From IMG/VR virus record IMGVR_UViG_3300034989_000079: a stretch of DNA of 50,192 bases; one strand, written 5' to 3'. The position numbers and the translations under genes are program-made. The stretch comes from a virus. Under the pieces are notes generated by a model, which was not told where the DNA came from, did not search any database, and saw nothing but the letters and a program-made list of their open reading frames with translations. Of the stretch, positions 3,458 to 47,771 are shown one piece after another (position 1 is the first letter of the stretch; the number at the start of each line of letters is the position of its first letter).

Positions 3458-3527
3458 ATTTGGATTCATATTGTGTAAATAGGGAAAGTAGGCGAACTCG
3501 AGTTCGTAGTTGAAAGGATTATAAAAA

Positions 3528-3899
3528 ATGTTTGCATGTACAAGATTTGAGACAAAACAGATTATGGATGGTAAGGCTTGTGGTATTGTTAGGAAATATG
3601 GTGATAATTGTCCACATGTTAGGGGAGGGGAAATTGTTTTGACTTCAAAATTTATAGATGGTCAAAGAAATATGCCATTCGCTAAAATAGAAGTGCAGAC
3701 GGTTAGACCCGGTACTGTTGGTATGTTTAGGAGAGATCCGATTATTTCAGAAATGGATGGATATGCCAATGGTGAGCATTGGGTGGGGCAGATGAGACAG
3801 CTTTATCCTGGTATTTCTAATGAGGATAAGGTTTTTCATATAAAGTTTTTTATTAAGGAAATGGACAAGGATGCCGGAAGAAGGGGTGATATTAATTAA
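3528..3899 (+). CDS. hypothetical protein, possible PUA/ASCH-like fold
   Basis: ORF preceded by palindrome copy 1; weak resemblance to ASCH N-termini (FETKQIMDGKACGIVRK). Confidence 0.4.
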   Translation: MFACTRFETKQIMDGKACGIVRKYGDNCPHVRGGEIVLTSKFIDGQRNMPFAKIEVQTVRPGTVGMFRRDPIISEMDGYANGEHWVGQMRQLYPGISNEDKVFHIKFFIKEMDKDAGRRGDIN

Positions 3900-3965
3900 A
3901 TTTTTGGTTTACTAACTATTTTTTGTGTAGTATTGTGTAAATGCTGATTGTTGTCAGGAGGCTGA

Positions 3966-5003
3966 ATGTTAGGAAATGTTATATGTAAAAAAAGTATTGA
4001 TGAAGCTAAAGAAAATTTTACAATTGTTCGTTCTACAAGTGTTCAAGATTTATTATTAGAAAAATGGAGTAAGAATAACTCTGATAGTAGATTAGCGACA
4101 TTAGTTCCACAAGATGAAACATGGAAAGAATTTTGGCTTTATGCTTCTGGTACAAAATATTGGTGTCCTAGATTATGTGCTATTAAGTCTTTTGTTAAAA
4201 TAAATGATATCGTAAATGCTGAAGGACTTTGGAATATGGAATACGGTAAAGCCGTTCATTCTGTATTTCAAAAGTCAGCTTTACCCAGTTTGGGTGTAAA
4301 ATTTTTAGGTGCATGGAAAAAATATTTTCCACTAGAGGTTCCAATCGGTAAAGATTTTGAGCATAAAATTTTTAAACTTGTTAGGTCTAGTTTTTGGAAT
4401 CAAGTAAATGATGATGAAGATCGTCATATTGTTAGGGGTTGGGGTACCAAGCCGGAAGGTAAAGATTGGGAATATGATGAGGTGAAAATCAGGATGTTAA
4501 AGTATCGTATAGTATCAAAATTGGATGCGATACTTTTGATTGATGATGAAGAAGAAGTTTTTGAGCTCAAAACAGAGAAAGTAACAGCAAGGGATGACTT
4601 GGACCCATGTTTAGGTGGTGCTGCAAGGATAGATCATGTTAATCAAGTGCAATTAGGAATGTGGGCTACTGGTATTCATAGGTCACGTATAGGTTATAAA
4701 TTTAAAGAAGTACCATATTTTAAGTCATCATTAATGGAACATCAGATTTTATATGATGAAAGTATTGTTGAGAGATTGAAAAGATTAGCGTTGATGTGTG
4801 TAGAAGCTGTCAGGATGTGCGATAAATATAAAATGGAGGTAGAGGGCGGTAAGCCTTTTTTCAAGGATGAGGCGTCCTTGTATGGATGGTTAGAGGATAG
4901 ATTCGATAGACTTCAAGATTGTCAGTTAAAGAGTAAGGGTAGACCTAAATATTGTCCTGGTAGAGATATTTGTTTTCCTAAAGGATATAGACGTAAAAAA
5001 TAA
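3966..5003 (+). CDS. PD-(D/E)xK nuclease, Cas4/RecB-family-like exonuclease with candidate Fe-S cysteines
   Basis: KLDAILLIDDEEEVFELKTEK (D...ExK), QLGMW (QxxxY-like), N-terminal CPRLC and C-terminal C..CPGRDIC cysteines; RBS caggagg. Confidence 0.45.
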   Translation: MLGNVICKKSIDEAKENFTIVRSTSVQDLLLEKWSKNNSDSRLATLVPQDETWKEFWLYASGTKYWCPRLCAIKSFVKINDIVNAEGLWNMEYGKAVHSVFQKSALPSLGVKFLGAWKKYFPLEVPIGKDFEHKIFKLVRSSFWNQVNDDEDRHIVRGWGTKPEGKDWEYDEVKIRMLKYRIVSKLDAILLIDDEEEVFELKTEKVTARDDLDPCLGGAARIDHVNQVQLGMWATGIHRSRIGYKFKEVPYFKSSLMEHQILYDESIVERLKRLALMCVEAVRMCDKYKMEVEGGKPFFKDEASLYGWLEDRFDRLQDCQLKSKGRPKYCPGRDICFPKGYRRKK

Positions 5004-5023
5004 AATAGTTGGGAGATTGAGTT

Positions 5024-5572
5024 GTGGCTGTTTTTTGTGGTGTTGACCCTGGTACAAACAAAAGTGGATTTGTGTTATTTGATAATGTAGATGATAAGAT
5101 TATTTTTTCTAGTGAACTTGAAAATGAAATTGTTCGTTCCATATTAAGAGTGGAAGGTGATTTCCCTCGGATTCCTGATGTTAAGACATGGGAAGCTTTT
5201 TTTATTGAAGACATTGAGTCAATGGGTTTGGTGGTTGGCAAGTCAACTTTCCAAACGGTAAAATGGATAGGTAGATTCGTTGAGGCTTACGAATATAGCA
5301 CCATGAAAAAATCTATCGAAATTTTAAGGGGAGATGAAAAAATAACATTGTGTGGAGCGAGAACATTTGTTAATCCTAAAACTGGTAGTAGGAAAGCGGT
5401 TACTGATGCGAATATAAAAAGTGCCGTGATTGATAGATTTTTACCATTAGGTGGAGGTAAGATACCGCAAGTGGGTACCAAAAAAGAACCTGGTCCATTA
5501 TATGGAGTGAAGGGTCACTGTTGGCAGGCACTTGCTGTTTTGATAACTGGGTTAGAAAATTTAAAGAAATGA
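5024..5572 (+). CDS. RuvC-like (RNase H fold) Holliday junction resolvase
   Basis: GTG start with RBS gggaga; FCGVDPGTNKSGFVLFD matches the RuvC motif GIDPG...G; acidic FIEDIES and C-terminal GHCWQALAVLIT resemble RuvC catalytic segments. Confidence 0.5.
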   Translation: MAVFCGVDPGTNKSGFVLFDNVDDKIIFSSELENEIVRSILRVEGDFPRIPDVKTWEAFFIEDIESMGLVVGKSTFQTVKWIGRFVEAYEYSTMKKSIEILRGDEKITLCGARTFVNPKTGSRKAVTDANIKSAVIDRFLPLGGGKIPQVGTKKEPGPLYGVKGHCWQALAVLITGLENLKK

Positions 5573-5606
5573 TGGTTTTGTGCCAGACAACAGAAAGGGC
5601 TGTACG

Positions 5607-45864: not shown

Positions 45865-46033
45865 TAGAAAGATCATAGAATCAAAAAGAGGTTTTACGCT
45901 TGTTGAATTGATGGTAGTTTTGATTATATTGGGGATTATGTTTTCCATTTCCGTTTATGCAATAAGAAGTTTTTTGTCAGAGAATAGAAATATTGATGAG
46001 ATTGTAGAAGATGAAAATGTAATAGAAATGTAG
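45851..46033 (+). CDS. type IV pilin/pseudopilin-like mini-protein with prepilin N-terminal cleavage/methylation motif
   Basis: MLRNNRKIIESKRG|FTLVELMVVLIILGI: basic leader ending in G, then F+1 and E+5 in a hydrophobic helix. Confidence 0.55.
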   Translation: MLRNNRKIIESKRGFTLVELMVVLIILGIMFSISVYAIRSFLSENRNIDEIVEDENVIEM

Positions 46034-46073
46034 GTAATTATTTGGTTGTAAACCAAGAAAGGAATGATGAGTT

Positions 46074-46694
46074 ATGAAAAGGTTGTTTTTTGTTGGATTG
46101 TGTGTGATTTTTGTTGGATGTATACCTGATTTTGGTGAAAAAGAAAATAAAGCGCCACGATCAAAATCTGGGGTAAAGGCGGCTAGAGTAAAAGTAAAAA
46201 CGAATGAAAAAGGTTTGACGGTTGAACAAGAAAATGTTGGTGCTCGTTTGAAAAATGATAGTGATGGAACATCAATAAAGCATTTGTATCTTGTTTCTGC
46301 ATATACAGGAGATGTTCTTGTTTATTCGACTGTGAAGGGGAAAGTAACATCTTCAGGTAAAAGATTGACACCATATACTGTTGCTGCTGGAGCTATTTCT
46401 GATGGTCATGGTAATATAAACCATTATGGAATTCCTATTGTTGTTAATGGTACACAATATAGAACATCAGAGATTCTTCAAGATGATGGGACATATGGTC
46501 ATTCAATGGAATATTTGTTTTGGCATGATATAAATGGTGTTTTTAGAAAAACATATGTTACGGGTGGAATAATGCCAATTATTAGTGCTGAACCAATGGC
46601 TTTTCCAAAAGTTATTTTGAATGTGGATGATTCATGGTCGCCGAAAAAAAATAAGTCAGATGATGCATTATCTTCAAAAAAAAAATCTGAATAA
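46074..46694 (+). CDS. secreted protein / putative lipoprotein
   Basis: signal peptide MKRLFFVGLCVIFVGC with lipobox-like FVGC; RBS aaggaatgatgag. Confidence 0.45.
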   Translation: MKRLFFVGLCVIFVGCIPDFGEKENKAPRSKSGVKAARVKVKTNEKGLTVEQENVGARLKNDSDGTSIKHLYLVSAYTGDVLVYSTVKGKVTSSGKRLTPYTVAAGAISDGHGNINHYGIPIVVNGTQYRTSEILQDDGTYGHSMEYLFWHDINGVFRKTYVTGGIMPIISAEPMAFPKVILNVDDSWSPKKNKSDDALSSKKKSE

Positions 46695-46729
46695 AATAAC
46701 TTTTTTCCCACACAAATAGGAGACAAATC

Positions 46730-47710
46730 GTGGATTATAGTAAAGAAGCGATAGATAACACTATCTTGAAGGTTAGAGTAGGATCTCATTTATTTGGGAC
46801 AAATACAGAAGATAGTGATTTAGATATTGAAGGTATTTTTATGCCTCCAATATCTGTTTTATATGGTTTAGGGGAATGCAAGGAGGTTGATTTAAGTGAA
46901 GCATCAAAGGATGAAAAGGGTCGGAATACATCTGATGCTATAGATTTTAAATTGAGAGAATACAGGACATTTATGCGATTAGCTATTCAGAATAATCCTA
47001 ATATTTTGAATATTGTTTTTTCAAATGATGAAAATGTTATTTTTCAAGACGAATTTGGAGAGCGATTGAGGGGAATGGCAGAGTATTTTCCATATAGAGA
47101 TGGGTTAAGAAGGTATTATGGATATGCTCAATCTCAATTGCAGAAAATGACTATTAAGCCAGATAATTATTCTTATTTAAACAAAGCGTTGGATTTTTTA
47201 TCTGGATGTAATCAAAAAGCTATTCTTGTTGATGTAATAAGATCAAAATGTAATCCATTGGCTAGAGTGTTTATTGATAAGGGGCCTGGTAAGCATGTTG
47301 TTGTTGCTGATTTGCATTTTGAAAGGGGACTTCAAGTAGGAAAAGTTGTATCGATGATTAATGGTAGATTAGAAAGGGCTAGTTCAAGAGCTGATAATTG
47401 GGAAAGATTTGGATATGATGTGAAATTTGCATCGAATTTGATTCAGATTTTAAAGCAAGGCATAGAGCTTGGTAAGACTGGTGTACTTAAATTTCCATTA
47501 GGATATAGAGATTTGATTCTTGATATAAAGAAAGGCAAGTTTAAGTTATCTGAGGTTGATAATATGGCTACAGATTTGATTGAAGAAATGATTTCTATTA
47601 TAGAGGGTGAATGTTGTTTGCCAAAGAAGCCTAGAAGGTTGGAAATTGGAAATTTCACTATTATTGAAGTAAAGAAATGGTGTGACAAGCAGTTTGTTAG
47701 TTGTCATTGA
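46730..47710 (+). CDS. predicted nucleotidyltransferase (Pol-beta superfamily, RlaP/PF10127-like)
   Basis: GTG start with RBS aggaga; VGSHLFGTNTEDSDLDIEGIF (GS..yG......SD.D), NNPNILNIVFS, RYYGYAQSQL. Confidence 0.55.
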   Translation: MDYSKEAIDNTILKVRVGSHLFGTNTEDSDLDIEGIFMPPISVLYGLGECKEVDLSEASKDEKGRNTSDAIDFKLREYRTFMRLAIQNNPNILNIVFSNDENVIFQDEFGERLRGMAEYFPYRDGLRRYYGYAQSQLQKMTIKPDNYSYLNKALDFLSGCNQKAILVDVIRSKCNPLARVFIDKGPGKHVVVADLHFERGLQVGKVVSMINGRLERASSRADNWERFGYDVKFASNLIQILKQGIELGKTGVLKFPLGYRDLILDIKKGKFKLSEVDNMATDLIEEMISIIEGECCLPKKPRRLEIGNFTIIEVKKWCDKQFVSCH

Positions 47711-47757
47711 TATAATGTTTCACGTGAAATATTAGTGTTATTAAAGAGAATTAATTG

Positions 47758-47771
47758 CGAACTCGAGTTCG
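47758..47771. repeat. palindrome copy 9: CGAACTCGAGTTCG
   Basis: exact; 9 nt upstream of the -35 of the 47781 promoter. Confidence 0.9.

What the first reader, a model, noticed from the sequence alone, without database searches (positions are those of the whole stretch)
3493..47771. Nine dispersed copies of a perfect palindrome CGAACTCGAGTTCG at gene boundaries
An identical 14-bp self-complementary core, extended to 16-24 bp in several copies, occurs at 3493, 9701, 16656, 22054, 27920, 32631, 39389, 44898 and 47758. Spacing is about 5-7 kb. A 14-mer is not expected even once by chance in 50 kb.

Every copy sits at a gene junction:
- 12-35 nt upstream of a start codon (3528, 22082, 27947, 32666, 44939);
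- just upstream of a -35 box (9746, 47781);
- overlapping the last codons of the upstream gene, translated ANSSS or RTRVRK (16533-16700, 32354-32650; 39389 begins at a stop codon).

None is followed by a U-tract, so they are not classical intrinsic terminators. Half-sites occur at 40273 (GGCGAAC, upstream of the MVP gene) and 45707. Candidate roles are operator sites for a dimeric phage regulator (the RHH, XRE or DUF3102-like proteins are candidates), RNA hairpin processing or stability sites (6-bp stem, UCGA loop) delimiting expression modules, or recognition sites for a DNA transaction. The core also contains an XhoI site, CTCGAG.
Basis: seen in the sequence. Interest (0 to 1): 0.75.

Follow-up and report, generated by a model that had tools for sequence, protein, structure and literature searches.

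The report
Evenly spaced LexA-box-like palindromes in phage
A large T4-like phage of a Gram-positive-type host carries an invariant 16-bp palindrome about every 6 kb, mostly between genes; its arms match the binding site of the bacterial DNA-damage repressor LexA, so it is most likely a protein-binding punctuation mark on the DNA, of a kind seen before in a few phages but never explained.

Summary
Nine exact copies of CGAACTCGAGTTCG lie at the stated coordinates; none is expected by chance. With flanking DNA of the same phage there are 14 copies in 83 kb, spaced 2.9-7.8 kb. That is far more regular than random gene junctions would give.

The functional unit is a 16-bp dyad, R-CGAACT-NN-AGTTCG-Y.
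- Relatives with 33-56% GC keep the arms.
- The central dinucleotide differs by lineage and occurs in both orientations.
- Flanks show no promoter, no U-tract, no stem extension and no longer repeat.
- Copies occur among early, replication, head and tail genes. One conserved copy is mid-gene, written in rare codons.

These features favour a double-stranded DNA site read by a symmetric dimer over an RNA hairpin, a promoter or a MITE. The arms equal the Firmicute/Actinobacterial LexA box (CGAAC-N4-GTTCG). However, positions 6 and 9 and the non-promoter placement are atypical, and no reader protein was identified.

My best reading is a dispersed LexA-type operator or roadblock array. The closest precedent is the unexplained 17-bp dyad repeat of Cluster O mycobacteriophages. 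I rate it a new variant of a known kind, of moderate to high interest.

The parts
3492..3507 (.). Copy 1, gCGAACTCGAGTTCGt. It lies 35 nt after the stop of the 186-aa gene (2897-3457) and 21 nt before the ATG at 3528.
9700..9715 (.). Copy 2, the core of a 24-bp perfect palindrome (9696-9719). It sits in a 205-nt gap, 32 nt upstream of the -35 of a sigma-A-like promoter (TTGACA at 9747). In strain L135 a pentapeptide-repeat gene cassette is inserted immediately after it, bounded on the far side by a half motif.
16655..16670 (.). Copy 3, aCGAACTCGAGTTCGc. It overlaps the last codons of the 55-aa ORF 16533-16700 and lies 23 nt before the ATG at 16693.
22053..22068 (.). Copy 4, the core of a 20-bp perfect palindrome (22051-22070). 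It lies 5 nt after the stop at 22048 and 14 nt before the ATG at 22082.
27919..27934 (.). Copy 5, a 16-bp perfect palindrome. It lies 4 nt after the stop at 27915 and 13 nt before the ATG at 27947.
32630..32645 (.). Copy 6, gCGAACTCGAGTTCGt. It lies inside the last 20 nt of the gene ending at 32650 and 21 nt before the ATG at 32666.
39388..39403 (.). Copy 7, a 16-bp perfect palindrome. Its first base is the last base of the stop codon of gene 39140-39388. The start of the downstream gene is ambiguous.
44897..44912 (.). Copy 8, aCGAACTCGAGTTCGc. It lies 9 nt after the stop at 44888 and 27 nt before the ATG at 44939.
47757..47772 (.). Copy 9, gCGAACTCGAGTTCGt. It lies 47 nt after the stop of the RlaP-like gene (47710), 9 nt upstream of a TTGACA -35 box (47781) and 27 nt downstream of a parS-like site. 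Strain L121 carries a 1-nt variant, CGAACTCGATTTCG.

Best explanation
SHOWN. The element is a 16-bp dyad-symmetric site, R-CGAACT-NN-AGTTCG-Y. It is kept intact at syntenic positions in phages whose proteins are only 40-85% identical and whose GC content ranges from 33 to 56%. It is distributed genome-wide, about every 6 kb in this phage, through early, replication, head and tail modules. It has no associated promoter, terminator tail or longer repeat.

INFERRED, fairly strong. It works as double-stranded DNA bound by a symmetric dimeric protein that reads about 7 bp per arm and ignores the central 2 bp.

INFERRED, moderate. The arms are exactly the Firmicute/Actinobacterial LexA operator CGAAC-N4-GTTCG, with a purine at -1 and a pyrimidine at +1 as in the Firmicute footprint.

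INFERRED, weak. Protein bound at these mostly intergenic sites punctuates the very long co-directional, terminator-poor, C-poor (so probably Rho-insensitive) transcription units. It would act as a set of roadblocks or insulators, functionally like mycobacteriophage stoperators. All of them would be released together when LexA is cleaved, for example once ssDNA and RecA (the phage encodes its own) accumulate during replication or host DNA damage.
For: Over-representation and conservation.
- Exact copies against chance.
- Diverged relatives L074/L142 keep perfect copies at syntenic junctions.
- Distant relatives L144, L148, L150, L151, L153 and L155 have 1-5 full CGAAC-N4-GTTCG sites each (up to 7 counting GAAC-N4-GTTC variants), against 0.006-0.02 expected. 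The arms are invariant and the centres are lineage-specific.

Evidence that it acts as DNA rather than RNA.
- Position -1 is always a purine and +1 always a pyrimidine, with no covariation (A/C pairs 5 observed, 6.3 expected).
- There is no stem extension beyond the core and no fixed-distance flanking motif.
- In this lineage the dyad runs through the centre.
- Asymmetric centres occur in both orientations (TCAA 11, TTGA 10).
- Hairpin stability varies from -4.4 to -13.8 kcal/mol between copies.
- A mid-gene copy is conserved in all lineages and written in rare CGA/CGC codons.

Genome-wide distribution, including tail and head genes.

Regular spacing.

LexA match.
- The B. subtilis consensus is CGAAC(n)4GTTCG, and phage GIL01 uses host LexA at a site downstream of a transcription start (PMC4551915).
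- GAAC-N4-GTTC is shared by Firmicutes and Actinobacteria, with the arms essential for binding (PMC4951493).
- The Firmicute footprint is TACGAACATATGTTCGTA (PMC2248561).
- That specificity is shared by Firmicutes and Actinobacteria, so a host LexA could explain arms that stay constant across hosts of different GC content.

Other context.
- Where a sigma-A-like promoter is present, the order is stop, motif, promoter.
- The phage encodes RecA.
Against: - T at position 6 and A at position 9 are invariant in all lineages, whereas the published Gram-positive consensus prefers R and Y there (CGAACRNRYGTTYC).
- Within this phage the centre is invariant. A normal LexA regulon has varied centres.
- The sites are not placed over recognisable promoters.
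- LexA is not known to need, or to produce, even spacing.
- The phage is T4-like and probably virulent. No repressor, integrase or LexA homologue was found in about 200 kb, so a stoperator-like silencing role has no obvious lysogenic context.
- The one jumbo phage studied for LexA control has a single operator (PMC9700832).
- Among the 120 genome hits returned for the exact 14-mer, none was next to lexA or recA.
- No binding or transcript data exist.
Confidence: 0.38

Rival explanations
1. The sites bind a phage-encoded (or other non-LexA) dimeric DNA-binding protein whose action covers a neighbourhood. One model is loading or nucleation sites for a sliding or spreading protein, like ParB/Noc/KorB on parS, NBS or OB palindromes. 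Another is anchors of topological or loop domains. Either way each site would serve about +/-3 kb of genome.
For: - The same dsDNA-dimer evidence applies as for the best explanation.
- The strikingly even spacing has both a minimum (2.9 kb) and a maximum (7.8 kb). That is what a coverage requirement predicts and what LexA does not explain.
- T6/A9 and, within a lineage, the centre are more constrained than LexA requires.
- The array spans all expression classes.
- The phage also carries at least four canonical parS sites, so it does interact with DNA-organising proteins.
Against: - No ParB-, KorB- or other candidate reader gene was found in the roughly 80 kb with JGI Pfam calls.
- The only clear HTH proteins are an XRE protein not found in the 9-22 kb sampled around SNF2 in distant relatives, a weak HTH_17/MerR-like 170-aa protein and a sigma factor.
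- Spacing is much less even and denser in some relatives. L150 has 7 sites in 12.6 kb.
- A phage-encoded reader would be expected to co-evolve with its site over this divergence, yet the arms never change.
Confidence: 0.25
2. It is an RNA element: a 5-6-bp hairpin in polycistronic mRNA recognised by a sequence-specific factor. It would act in processing, 3'-end formation, protection from exonucleases, or control of the ribosome-binding site that follows 1-12 nt downstream.
For: - Almost all copies lie between a stop codon and the next Shine-Dalgarno sequence on the transcribed strand.
- All genes run co-directionally.
- The phage encodes many RNA-handling enzymes: RNA ligase, a CCA/poly(A) polymerase-like enzyme, RlaP, DHH and a KH protein.
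- Some copies form stable hairpins (-10 to -14 kcal/mol).
Against: - The core hairpin is weak (-4.4 kcal/mol) and stability is not conserved.
- There is no pairing selection at +/-1 or beyond.
- The stem sequence is invariant where compensatory change would be allowed, while the 'loop' varies and flips orientation within a genome.
- The loop is itself self-complementary in this lineage.
- Where a promoter is present, the motif is upstream of it, so it is not in that gene's leader.
- A conserved mid-gene copy would cut or terminate its own mRNA.
- There is no U-tract and no Rfam match.
Confidence: 0.1
3. It is a self-propagating or recombination-associated palindrome. It could be a short iterated palindrome (compare cyanobacterial HIP1 or REP elements) spread by gene conversion or templated insertion. 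It could also be the recognition and cleavage site of a nuclease, recombinase or type II topoisomerase that promotes cassette exchange. Copies would persist only where they are tolerated.
For: - The centre dinucleotide is homogenised within each lineage but differs between lineages at the same syntenic site. This indicates concerted evolution of copies.
- Strain L135 has a 620-bp pentapeptide-repeat gene cassette inserted exactly at copy 2. A half motif, TCGAGTTCG, lies on the far side, so the break is at CGAAC^TCGAG, the geometry of a 4-nt 5' stagger.
- Strain L191 has an extra in-frame copy inside a mini-intein in the terminase gene, only 1.5 kb from the next copy.
- Copies sit in tolerant places: spacers, C-terminal codons and a linker.
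- Cluster O phages show a gene flanked by a 17-bp direct repeat (PMC4351075).
Against: - The same junctions carry the site in lineages with proteins only 40-60% identical. This implies long-term purifying selection at fixed positions rather than turnover.
- Rare-codon encoding of the mid-gene copy shows that selection maintains it.
- Even spacing is not expected of a selfish element.
- Synteny breaks between relatives fall in the middle of inter-site intervals, not at the sites.
- Only one of the strain indels lies at a site.
- No transposase, RAYT or endonuclease partner was seen.
- A nuclease site every 6 kb in the phage's own genome would be hazardous.
Confidence: 0.12
4. It is a phage-specific promoter, or a core promoter element, for the phage sigma factor (11626-12261) or a phage RNA polymerase. 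The analogy is the invariant 23-bp T7 promoters or N4 hairpin promoters.
For: - It is an invariant sequence just upstream of the ribosome-binding sites of many operon-like gene groups, including replication, head and tail genes.
- The phage encodes a sigma factor.
Against: - There is no second promoter element at any fixed distance within +/-30 nt.
- The site is symmetric, and asymmetric centres occur in both orientations.
- The motif ends 1-5 nt before the Shine-Dalgarno sequence, leaving no room for a -10 box and start site downstream.
- Mid-gene and intein copies exist.
- In two cases it lies upstream of a normal sigma-A-like promoter.
Confidence: 0.04

Closest known systems
Cluster O mycobacteriophage 17-bp dyad repeat, 5'-TGTTCGG-NNN-CCGAACA (Corndog and relatives; PMC4351075)
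   Same: - Dozens of copies are spread through a non-lysogenic phage genome.
- The inverted arms are invariant, and the centre is variable and unconstrained in orientation relative to transcription.
- Most copies are intergenic or at gene ends, with some inside genes.
- Function and reader are unknown.
- A gene is flanked by a 17-bp direct repeat.
- The arms even contain the same pentamers, GTTCG/CGAAC, in the mirror arrangement.
   Different: - Here the arms are 7 bp with a 2-bp centre, against 7 + 3 + 7 there, and the arm order is inverted.
- The host is a Firmicute-type organism and the phage a T4-like jumbo myovirus, not an actinobacteriophage siphovirus.
- The density is lower and the spacing markedly even in this phage.
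- Here the arms coincide with the host-type LexA operator.
LexA operators (Cheo/SOS boxes) of Firmicutes and Actinobacteria, and phages that use host LexA (GIL01 dinBox1; pBtic235)
   Same: - It is a 14-bp dyad, CGAAC-N4-GTTCG, matching all ten specified consensus positions.
- The flanks are purine and pyrimidine, as in the Firmicute footprint.
- In relatives the 4-bp spacer varies.
- GIL01's LexA site also lies downstream of the transcription start rather than over the promoter.
   Different: - Positions 6 and 9 are fixed as T and A rather than R and Y.
- The centre is fixed within a lineage.
- There are at least 14 sites per 83 kb, against 1-3 in known LexA-controlled phages (pBtic235 has one).
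- The sites are not at recognisable promoters.
- The spacing is even.
- LexA binding is untested.
Stoperators of Cluster A mycobacteriophages (L5, Bxb1; PMC9283540 abstract; comparison in PMC4351075)
   Same: Many near-identical short sites lie in short intergenic spaces throughout early and late operons. The proposed action here, a protein roadblock to elongating RNA polymerase, is the demonstrated action there.
   Different: - Stoperators are asymmetric 13-mers, oriented with transcription and bound by a monomeric phage immunity repressor in temperate phages.
- The present site is symmetric and orientation-free.
- No repressor is known, and the phage looks virulent.
ParB/Noc/KorB palindromic loading sites (parS, NBS, OB) - comparison from my own knowledge
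   Same: These are perfect 13-16-bp palindromes, dispersed over a replicon and often identical in sequence. They act on surrounding kilobases through a sliding or spreading protein, which would explain even spacing.
   Different: There is no sequence similarity to parS, NBS or OB. No ParB-family gene was found near the sites. Canonical parS sites are present separately in this phage.
PeSL promoter/stem-loop cassettes of T4-type phages - from my own knowledge
   Same: They are repeated intergenic elements in T4-like genomes, located upstream of small accessory ORFs and implicated in cassette shuffling. Compare the pentapeptide-repeat cassette at copy 2.
   Different: PeSLs are longer, contain an early promoter, and vary in sequence. 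The present motif has no linked promoter and is invariant.

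Membership tests
LexA operator (Cheo/SOS box) of Firmicutes/Actinobacteria | Inverted repeat GAAC-N4-GTTC (extended form CGAAC-N4-GTTCG) | tested here: met
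   All 9 window copies, and all copies in relatives, match CGAAC-N4-GTTCG exactly. The consensus comes from PMC4551915, PMC4951493 and PMC4234289.
LexA operator (Cheo/SOS box) of Firmicutes/Actinobacteria | Spacer preference RNRY (CGAACRNRYGTTYC); spacer sequence varies between sites of one regulon | tested here: not met
   Position 6 is always T and position 9 always A (G once) in every lineage. The centre is invariant (TCGA) within this phage. The consensus is from PMC2248561.
LexA operator (Cheo/SOS box) of Firmicutes/Actinobacteria | Located at or overlapping the promoter of the regulated gene | tested here: not met
   No -35 or -10 element lies at a fixed distance. No scan hit abuts the motif, except that copies 2 and 9 lie 32 and 9 nt upstream of a -35 box. 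GIL01 dinBox1 shows that promoter overlap is not absolute.
LexA operator (Cheo/SOS box) of Firmicutes/Actinobacteria | Bound by LexA and derepressed on RecA-stimulated cleavage | not testable with these tools
   This needs EMSA, ChIP or reporters. The host is unknown. No LexA gene was found in about 200 kb of phage DNA.
Mycobacteriophage stoperators | Many copies in short intergenic regions across early and late operons | tested here: met
Mycobacteriophage stoperators | Asymmetric site oriented with the direction of transcription | tested here: not met
   The site is a perfect palindrome in this phage. In relatives the asymmetric centres are TCAA 11 and TTGA 10 on the coding strand.
Mycobacteriophage stoperators | Cognate phage immunity repressor; temperate lifestyle | tested here: inconclusive
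   No repressor or integrase was seen in the DNA in hand. The head genes are T4-like. The genome is incomplete.
Cluster O-type dispersed dyad repeat (function unknown) | Tens of copies with invariant inverted arms, an unconstrained centre in either orientation, mostly intergenic, genome-wide | tested here: met
   compared with PMC4351075. This is a descriptive class, not a mechanistic one, and the sequence and arm order differ.
Intrinsic (Rho-independent) terminator | G+C-rich hairpin followed by a U-tract | tested here: not met
   No T-run follows any copy. The terminator scan does not call them. The core hairpin gives only -4.4 kcal/mol.
MITE / REP-type mobile repeat | A longer conserved unit (tens to hundreds of bp), with imperfect, variable copies and a partner transposase or RAYT | tested here: not met
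   Information content falls to background beyond +/-3 nt. Copies are essentially invariant. No transposase was seen.
Phage-specific promoter (T7-like, N4 hairpin or sigma-dependent) | Asymmetric, oriented element with room for a transcription start upstream of the ribosome-binding site | tested here: not met
   The site is symmetric and orientation-free. The Shine-Dalgarno sequence starts 1-5 nt after the motif. There is no partner element.
parS / ParB loading site | Match to TGTTNCACGTGAAACA and presence of a ParB-family protein | tested here: not met
   There is no similarity. Canonical parS sites occur separately at 6885 and 47716. No ParB Pfam hit appears in the JGI calls.

The most novel reading that the evidence does not exclude
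A virulent T4-like jumbo phage lineage has wired its whole genome to the host SOS repressor. An evenly spaced array of high-affinity LexA sites, at least 14 per 83 kb and conserved across hosts of 33-56% GC, gates read-through of its long co-directional transcripts. LexA cleavage, driven by the phage's own RecA and replication-derived ssDNA, would then act as a genome-wide switch. Alternatively the array soaks up LexA to force the host into SOS. Either would be a new use of LexA by a lytic phage and a new mode of temporal control.
Probability: 0.2. Interest if true: 0.85.

Novelty: new variant of a known kind. Interest (0 to 1): 0.62.

Why it matters
Dispersed, invariant dyad repeats in phage genomes, such as the Cluster O repeat, have remained unexplained for a decade. 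This family offers a concrete and cheap hypothesis, because its arms are the operator of a known, purifiable host protein (LexA).

The family also supplies natural variants for testing what is read: centres CG, CA/TG, CC/GG and GC; a mid-gene copy; and a copy inside an intein.

If LexA or a mimic binds, it would reveal genome-wide coupling of a large lytic phage's expression to the host DNA-damage state. If it does not bind, the even 6-kb spacing points instead to a DNA-organising system in jumbo phages. In either case the motif is a useful marker for this uncultured T4-like lineage. It already exposes a phage contig mis-binned as an archaeal MAG.

Tried and rejected
- **Literature search for the exact 14-mer.** It found only shRNA vectors with a CTCGAG loop.
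- **Megablast of 12 kb against phage records.** No match. The closest annotated relatives by MVP-like protein, RecA and capsid protein are at most 37% identical.
- **LR756500, a 462-kb phage sharing the MVP-like gene.** It has no such motif in 42 kb.
- **Rfam and tRNA scans of the window.** Nothing found.
- **Convergent junctions in L028/L082.** They are not convergent. L028 11430 lies in an iteron-like non-coding region and L082 1238 precedes a co-directional gene.
- **Module-boundary hypothesis.** Synteny breaks between L074 and this phage fall inside intervals, not at the sites. Small strain indels are not at the sites.
- **A LexA-like gene.** That gene has no S24 domain or PDB match.
- **The XRE HTH as reader.** Not found in the 9-22 kb sampled around SNF2 in distant relatives.
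- **Genome-collection scan for the 14-mer.** None was next to lexA or recA, and no multi-copy host was found.
- **Primary B. subtilis LexA papers** (Au 2005, Groban 2005). Not held in the library. My recollection that a din box reads CGAACTTTAGTTCG could not be verified.
- **L149, which shares SNF2 only.** It has no motif and no replacement dyad.

Full report
**1.

CGAACTCGAGTTCG occurs exactly nine times, at the coordinates given. In dinucleotide-preserving shuffles the expectation was 0.00. Relaxing to three mismatches adds only one chance-level site. Several copies extend to perfect palindromes of 16, 20 or 24 bp.

The window is 33% G+C with an extreme strand asymmetry: GC skew about +0.45, and only 9.3% C on the + strand. 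All plausible genes are on the + strand. A motif containing four Cs is therefore especially unexpected.

By my ORF map and by independent JGI gene calls on identical contigs, the nine copies are placed as follows.
- Six lie 13-27 nt before a start codon and 0-35 nt after a stop, or overlap the last codons of a gene.
- Two lie in longer gaps, upstream of a sigma-A-like promoter.
- One has an ambiguous downstream start.
- None has a T-tract.

**2. What the genome is.**

The window is 100% identical to Logan assemblies and 97.7-99.9% identical to JGI metagenome contigs of 93-173 kb. The gene content by region is:
- Upstream of the window: a DnaC-like protein, DnaB, a ResIII helicase and RecA.
- Inside the window: a sigma factor, a CCA/poly(A)-polymerase-like enzyme, an RNA ligase, dCMP deaminase, ThyX, thymidylate kinase and an MVP-shoulder protein.
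- Downstream: an SNF2 helicase, then a T4-like head module with terminase, gp20-like portal, gp21-like protease and gp23-like capsid protein.
- On a separate contig: a tail and baseplate module.

No annotated phage is close, with identity at most 37%. This is an uncultured, large, T4-superfamily myovirus. Its Shine-Dalgarno sequences and sigma-A-type promoters look Firmicute-like.

**3. The array extends beyond the window and is evenly spaced.**

Joining the flanks with IMG/VR pieces of the same phage gives 14 copies over 83 kb. Their window coordinates are -4338, 3493, 9701, 16656, 22054, 27920, 32631, 39389, 44898, 47758, 51821, 59131, 63884 and 70986.

The intervals run from 2.9 to 7.8 kb, with mean 5.8 kb and CV 0.25. 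None of 100,000 random draws of 14 positions from the 178 gene junctions was as regular. For the nine window copies alone, P = 1.8e-4.

The tail-module contig has copies at 295, 6767 and 11430 of locus L028. The array therefore runs through early, replication, head and tail genes. It is not tied to one temporal class.

**4. Anatomy of the site.**

I aligned thirty non-redundant sites.
- There is no information at any fixed distance within +/-30 nt, so no promoter partner and no longer repeat. The MITE idea is refuted.
- Position -1 is always a purine (G 20, A 10). Position +1 is always a pyrimidine (C 19, T 11). Position +2 is mostly A.
- Positions -1 and +1 do not covary. A/C combinations were 5 observed against 6.3 expected, and pairing is not enriched at +/-2 to +/-8.

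The two outer positions are therefore selected independently as purine and pyrimidine, not as a base pair. Symmetric half-site reading of duplex DNA predicts this; a helix does not.

As RNA, the copies fold with -4.4 to -13.8 kcal/mol, and the invariant core alone gives -4.4. Hairpin strength is not what is conserved.

**5. Evolution of the site.**

L074/L142 is a relative whose proteins are 42-85% identical. It keeps perfect copies at the two syntenic junctions, while the variable gene content lies between them.

More distant relatives were found through the SNF2 helicase (57-60% identity; 44-56% G+C). They carry 1-5 full CGAAC-N4-GTTCG sites (up to 7 counting GAAC-N4-GTTC variants) per 9-22 kb, against 0.006-0.02 expected. 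All of these sites fit R-CGAACT-NN-AGTTCG-Y.

The central dinucleotide is lineage-specific:
- CG in this phage;
- CA/TG in three lineages;
- CC/GG or GC in others.

It differs between lineages at the same syntenic site upstream of SNF2. Where it is asymmetric it occurs in both orientations on the coding strand (TCAA 11, TTGA 10). The element is therefore functionally symmetric. Its arms are under strict selection, and its centre evolves in concert within a genome.

One copy lies in the middle of a roughly 285-aa gene downstream of the portal gene. It is conserved at the homologous codons in every lineage (R-T-R-V-R here, R-T-Q-V-R elsewhere). It is written with the rare CGA and CGC arginine codons, which make up 5% and 1% of Arg codons. 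Selection there acts on the nucleotides. A constitutive terminator or processing site in that position would destroy its own mRNA.

L149 shares only SNF2. It has neither the motif nor a substitute.

**6. The LexA connection.**

- CGAAC(n)4GTTCG is the B. subtilis LexA consensus (PMC4551915).
- GAAC-N4-GTTC is the LexA motif of Firmicutes and Actinobacteria, with the arms essential for binding (PMC4951493; PMC4234289).
- The Firmicute phylogenetic footprint is TACGAACATATGTTCGTA, which has a purine at -1 and a pyrimidine at +1 (PMC2248561).

The phage site matches all ten specified positions. A random palindrome would do so with probability about 1/1024. The same LexA motif is reported for Firmicutes and Actinobacteria. 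That could explain why the arms stay fixed in phages of hosts with very different G+C.

Several points count against simple membership.
- T6/A9 replaces the preferred R/Y.
- The centre is invariant within this phage.
- The sites are not over recognisable promoters.
- LexA gives no reason for even spacing.
- Known LexA-controlled phages have one to three sites (GIL01; pBtic235 has one).
- No LexA homologue was found in about 200 kb of family DNA.
- The exact 14-mer was not next to lexA or recA in the 120 genome hits returned.

**7. Structural variants at the motif.**

Strain L135 carries a 620-bp cassette encoding a pentapeptide-repeat protein immediately after copy 2 (Pfam 1e-74). The cassette is bounded on the left by the full motif. 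On the right it is bounded by aaataTCGAGTTCGcagaaaa, a half motif with the same flank. The direct repeat is TCGAGTTCGCAGAAAA and the break is at CGAAC^TCGAG.

Strain L191 is a contig binned as an 'uncultured archaeon'. It has a 195-aa mini-intein in the terminase gene (Cys1 ... Val-Val-His-Asn|Thr; Intein_splicing E = 2e-7). That intein contains an extra in-frame copy, read as N-E-L-E-F-V, only 1.5 kb from the neighbouring copy.

These two cases, together with the concerted evolution of the centre, show that copies can be gained or exchanged. The fixed syntenic positions, the rare-codon copy and the lack of other indels at the sites nevertheless argue for function rather than selfish spread.

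**8. Weighing mechanisms.**

I am fairly confident (about 0.7) that this is a duplex-DNA site for a symmetric dimer.

Within that reading, a LexA-type reader acting as a dispersed operator or roadblock array is the single best-supported story (0.38). It would punctuate very long, co-directional, terminator-poor transcripts and be released together on LexA cleavage.

A non-LexA reader whose action covers a neighbourhood explains the spacing better, but it has no candidate protein (0.25). Such a reader could be a sliding or spreading protein, or a domain anchor.

The other readings are less likely: RNA hairpin (0.10), recombination-associated or selfish palindrome (0.12), and promoter (0.04).

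**9. Comparison with what is known.**

The closest described phenomenon is the 17-bp dyad repeat of Cluster O mycobacteriophages, TGTTCGG-NNN-CCGAACA.
- It has more than 30 copies per genome.
- Its arms are invariant, and its centre is free in both orientations.
- It is mostly intergenic, in non-lysogenic phages.
- Its function is unknown (PMC4351075).

Stoperators are the closest mechanistic model, but they are asymmetric, oriented and repressor-linked.

The present array is therefore a new variant of a known but unexplained kind. It is distinguished by its LexA-box arms, its even spacing, its T4-like jumbo host genome, and its conservation across lineages of widely different base composition.

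Noticed in passing
window 6884-6901 and 47715-47731; also L025 4151 and L079 1597: There is a perfect 18-bp palindrome, ATGTTTCACGTGAAACAT, containing the canonical 16-bp parS (ParB/Spo0J) site. It lies inside ORF 6619-7116. A 15/16 copy sits 27 nt upstream of motif copy 9. Two more perfect copies lie in other parts of the same phage, apparently within a paralogous gene family. A probably lytic T4-like phage carrying at least four host-type parS sites is unexplained.
   Followed up: partly
whole window: The strand asymmetry is extreme. C is only 9.3% of the coding strand (GC skew about +0.45) and every gene is on one strand. Such C-poor mRNA should be a poor Rho substrate (my inference).
   Followed up: no
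window 6496, 9740, 12271, 15324, 20113, 39052, 44255 (and TTGACA at 47781): There is a family of strong sigma-A-like promoters with a shared upstream A-tract, AAAAAAGT(G)TTGACAAAC...TAnAAT. They are probably host-RNAP early promoters. They have no fixed relation to the palindrome.
   Followed up: partly
window 9775-9820; L025 129-229; L096 6716-6807; L135 16850-16890: A conserved leader of about 45 nt, containing the hairpin CTCAACAAGATGTTGAG and then a ribosome-binding site, recurs at 80-91% identity in otherwise diverged regions. It is duplicated with the pentapeptide cassette. In L096 it forms a small island of opposite strand bias. It could be a regulatory leader or a small RNA.
   Followed up: no
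L135 16844-17466 (insertion after window 9721): A strain-specific gene encoding a 184-aa pentapeptide-repeat protein has a much higher C content than the phage. It looks like a recent acquisition.
   Followed up: partly
L191 4148-4732 (inserted at about window 60474, in the terminase large-subunit gene): One strain has a 195-aa mini-intein in TerL. The contig carrying it (CAYUTF010000008.1) is deposited as part of an 'uncultured archaeon' MAG but is this phage, so it is a binning error.
   Followed up: partly
window 11626-12261, 7549-8178, 12348-13685, 36460-37365 and 46730-47710: The phage encodes its own sigma factor. It also has a cluster of RNA-repair and RNA-turnover-type genes: RNA ligase, a CCA/poly(A) polymerase-like enzyme with an HD domain, a DHH phosphoesterase and an RlaP nucleotidyltransferase.
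   Followed up: no
L028 11080-11640: A non-coding region at the end of the tail module contains about five iteron-like repeats, AATGATTTCARC(R)TTG, with a palindrome copy embedded at 11430. It is a candidate replication origin or control region.
   Followed up: no
window 20460-20686: The 11-mer GATTAGAAATC occurs five times, three of them at 12-nt spacing, inside the DUF6745 gene (20197-21429). This is probably a short coding tandem repeat.
   Followed up: no
window 40300-42954: An 884-aa protein with a major-vault-protein shoulder domain has its only relatives in the phage collection (36-37% identity) in 462-735-kb uncultured 'huge phage' genomes.
   Followed up: partly
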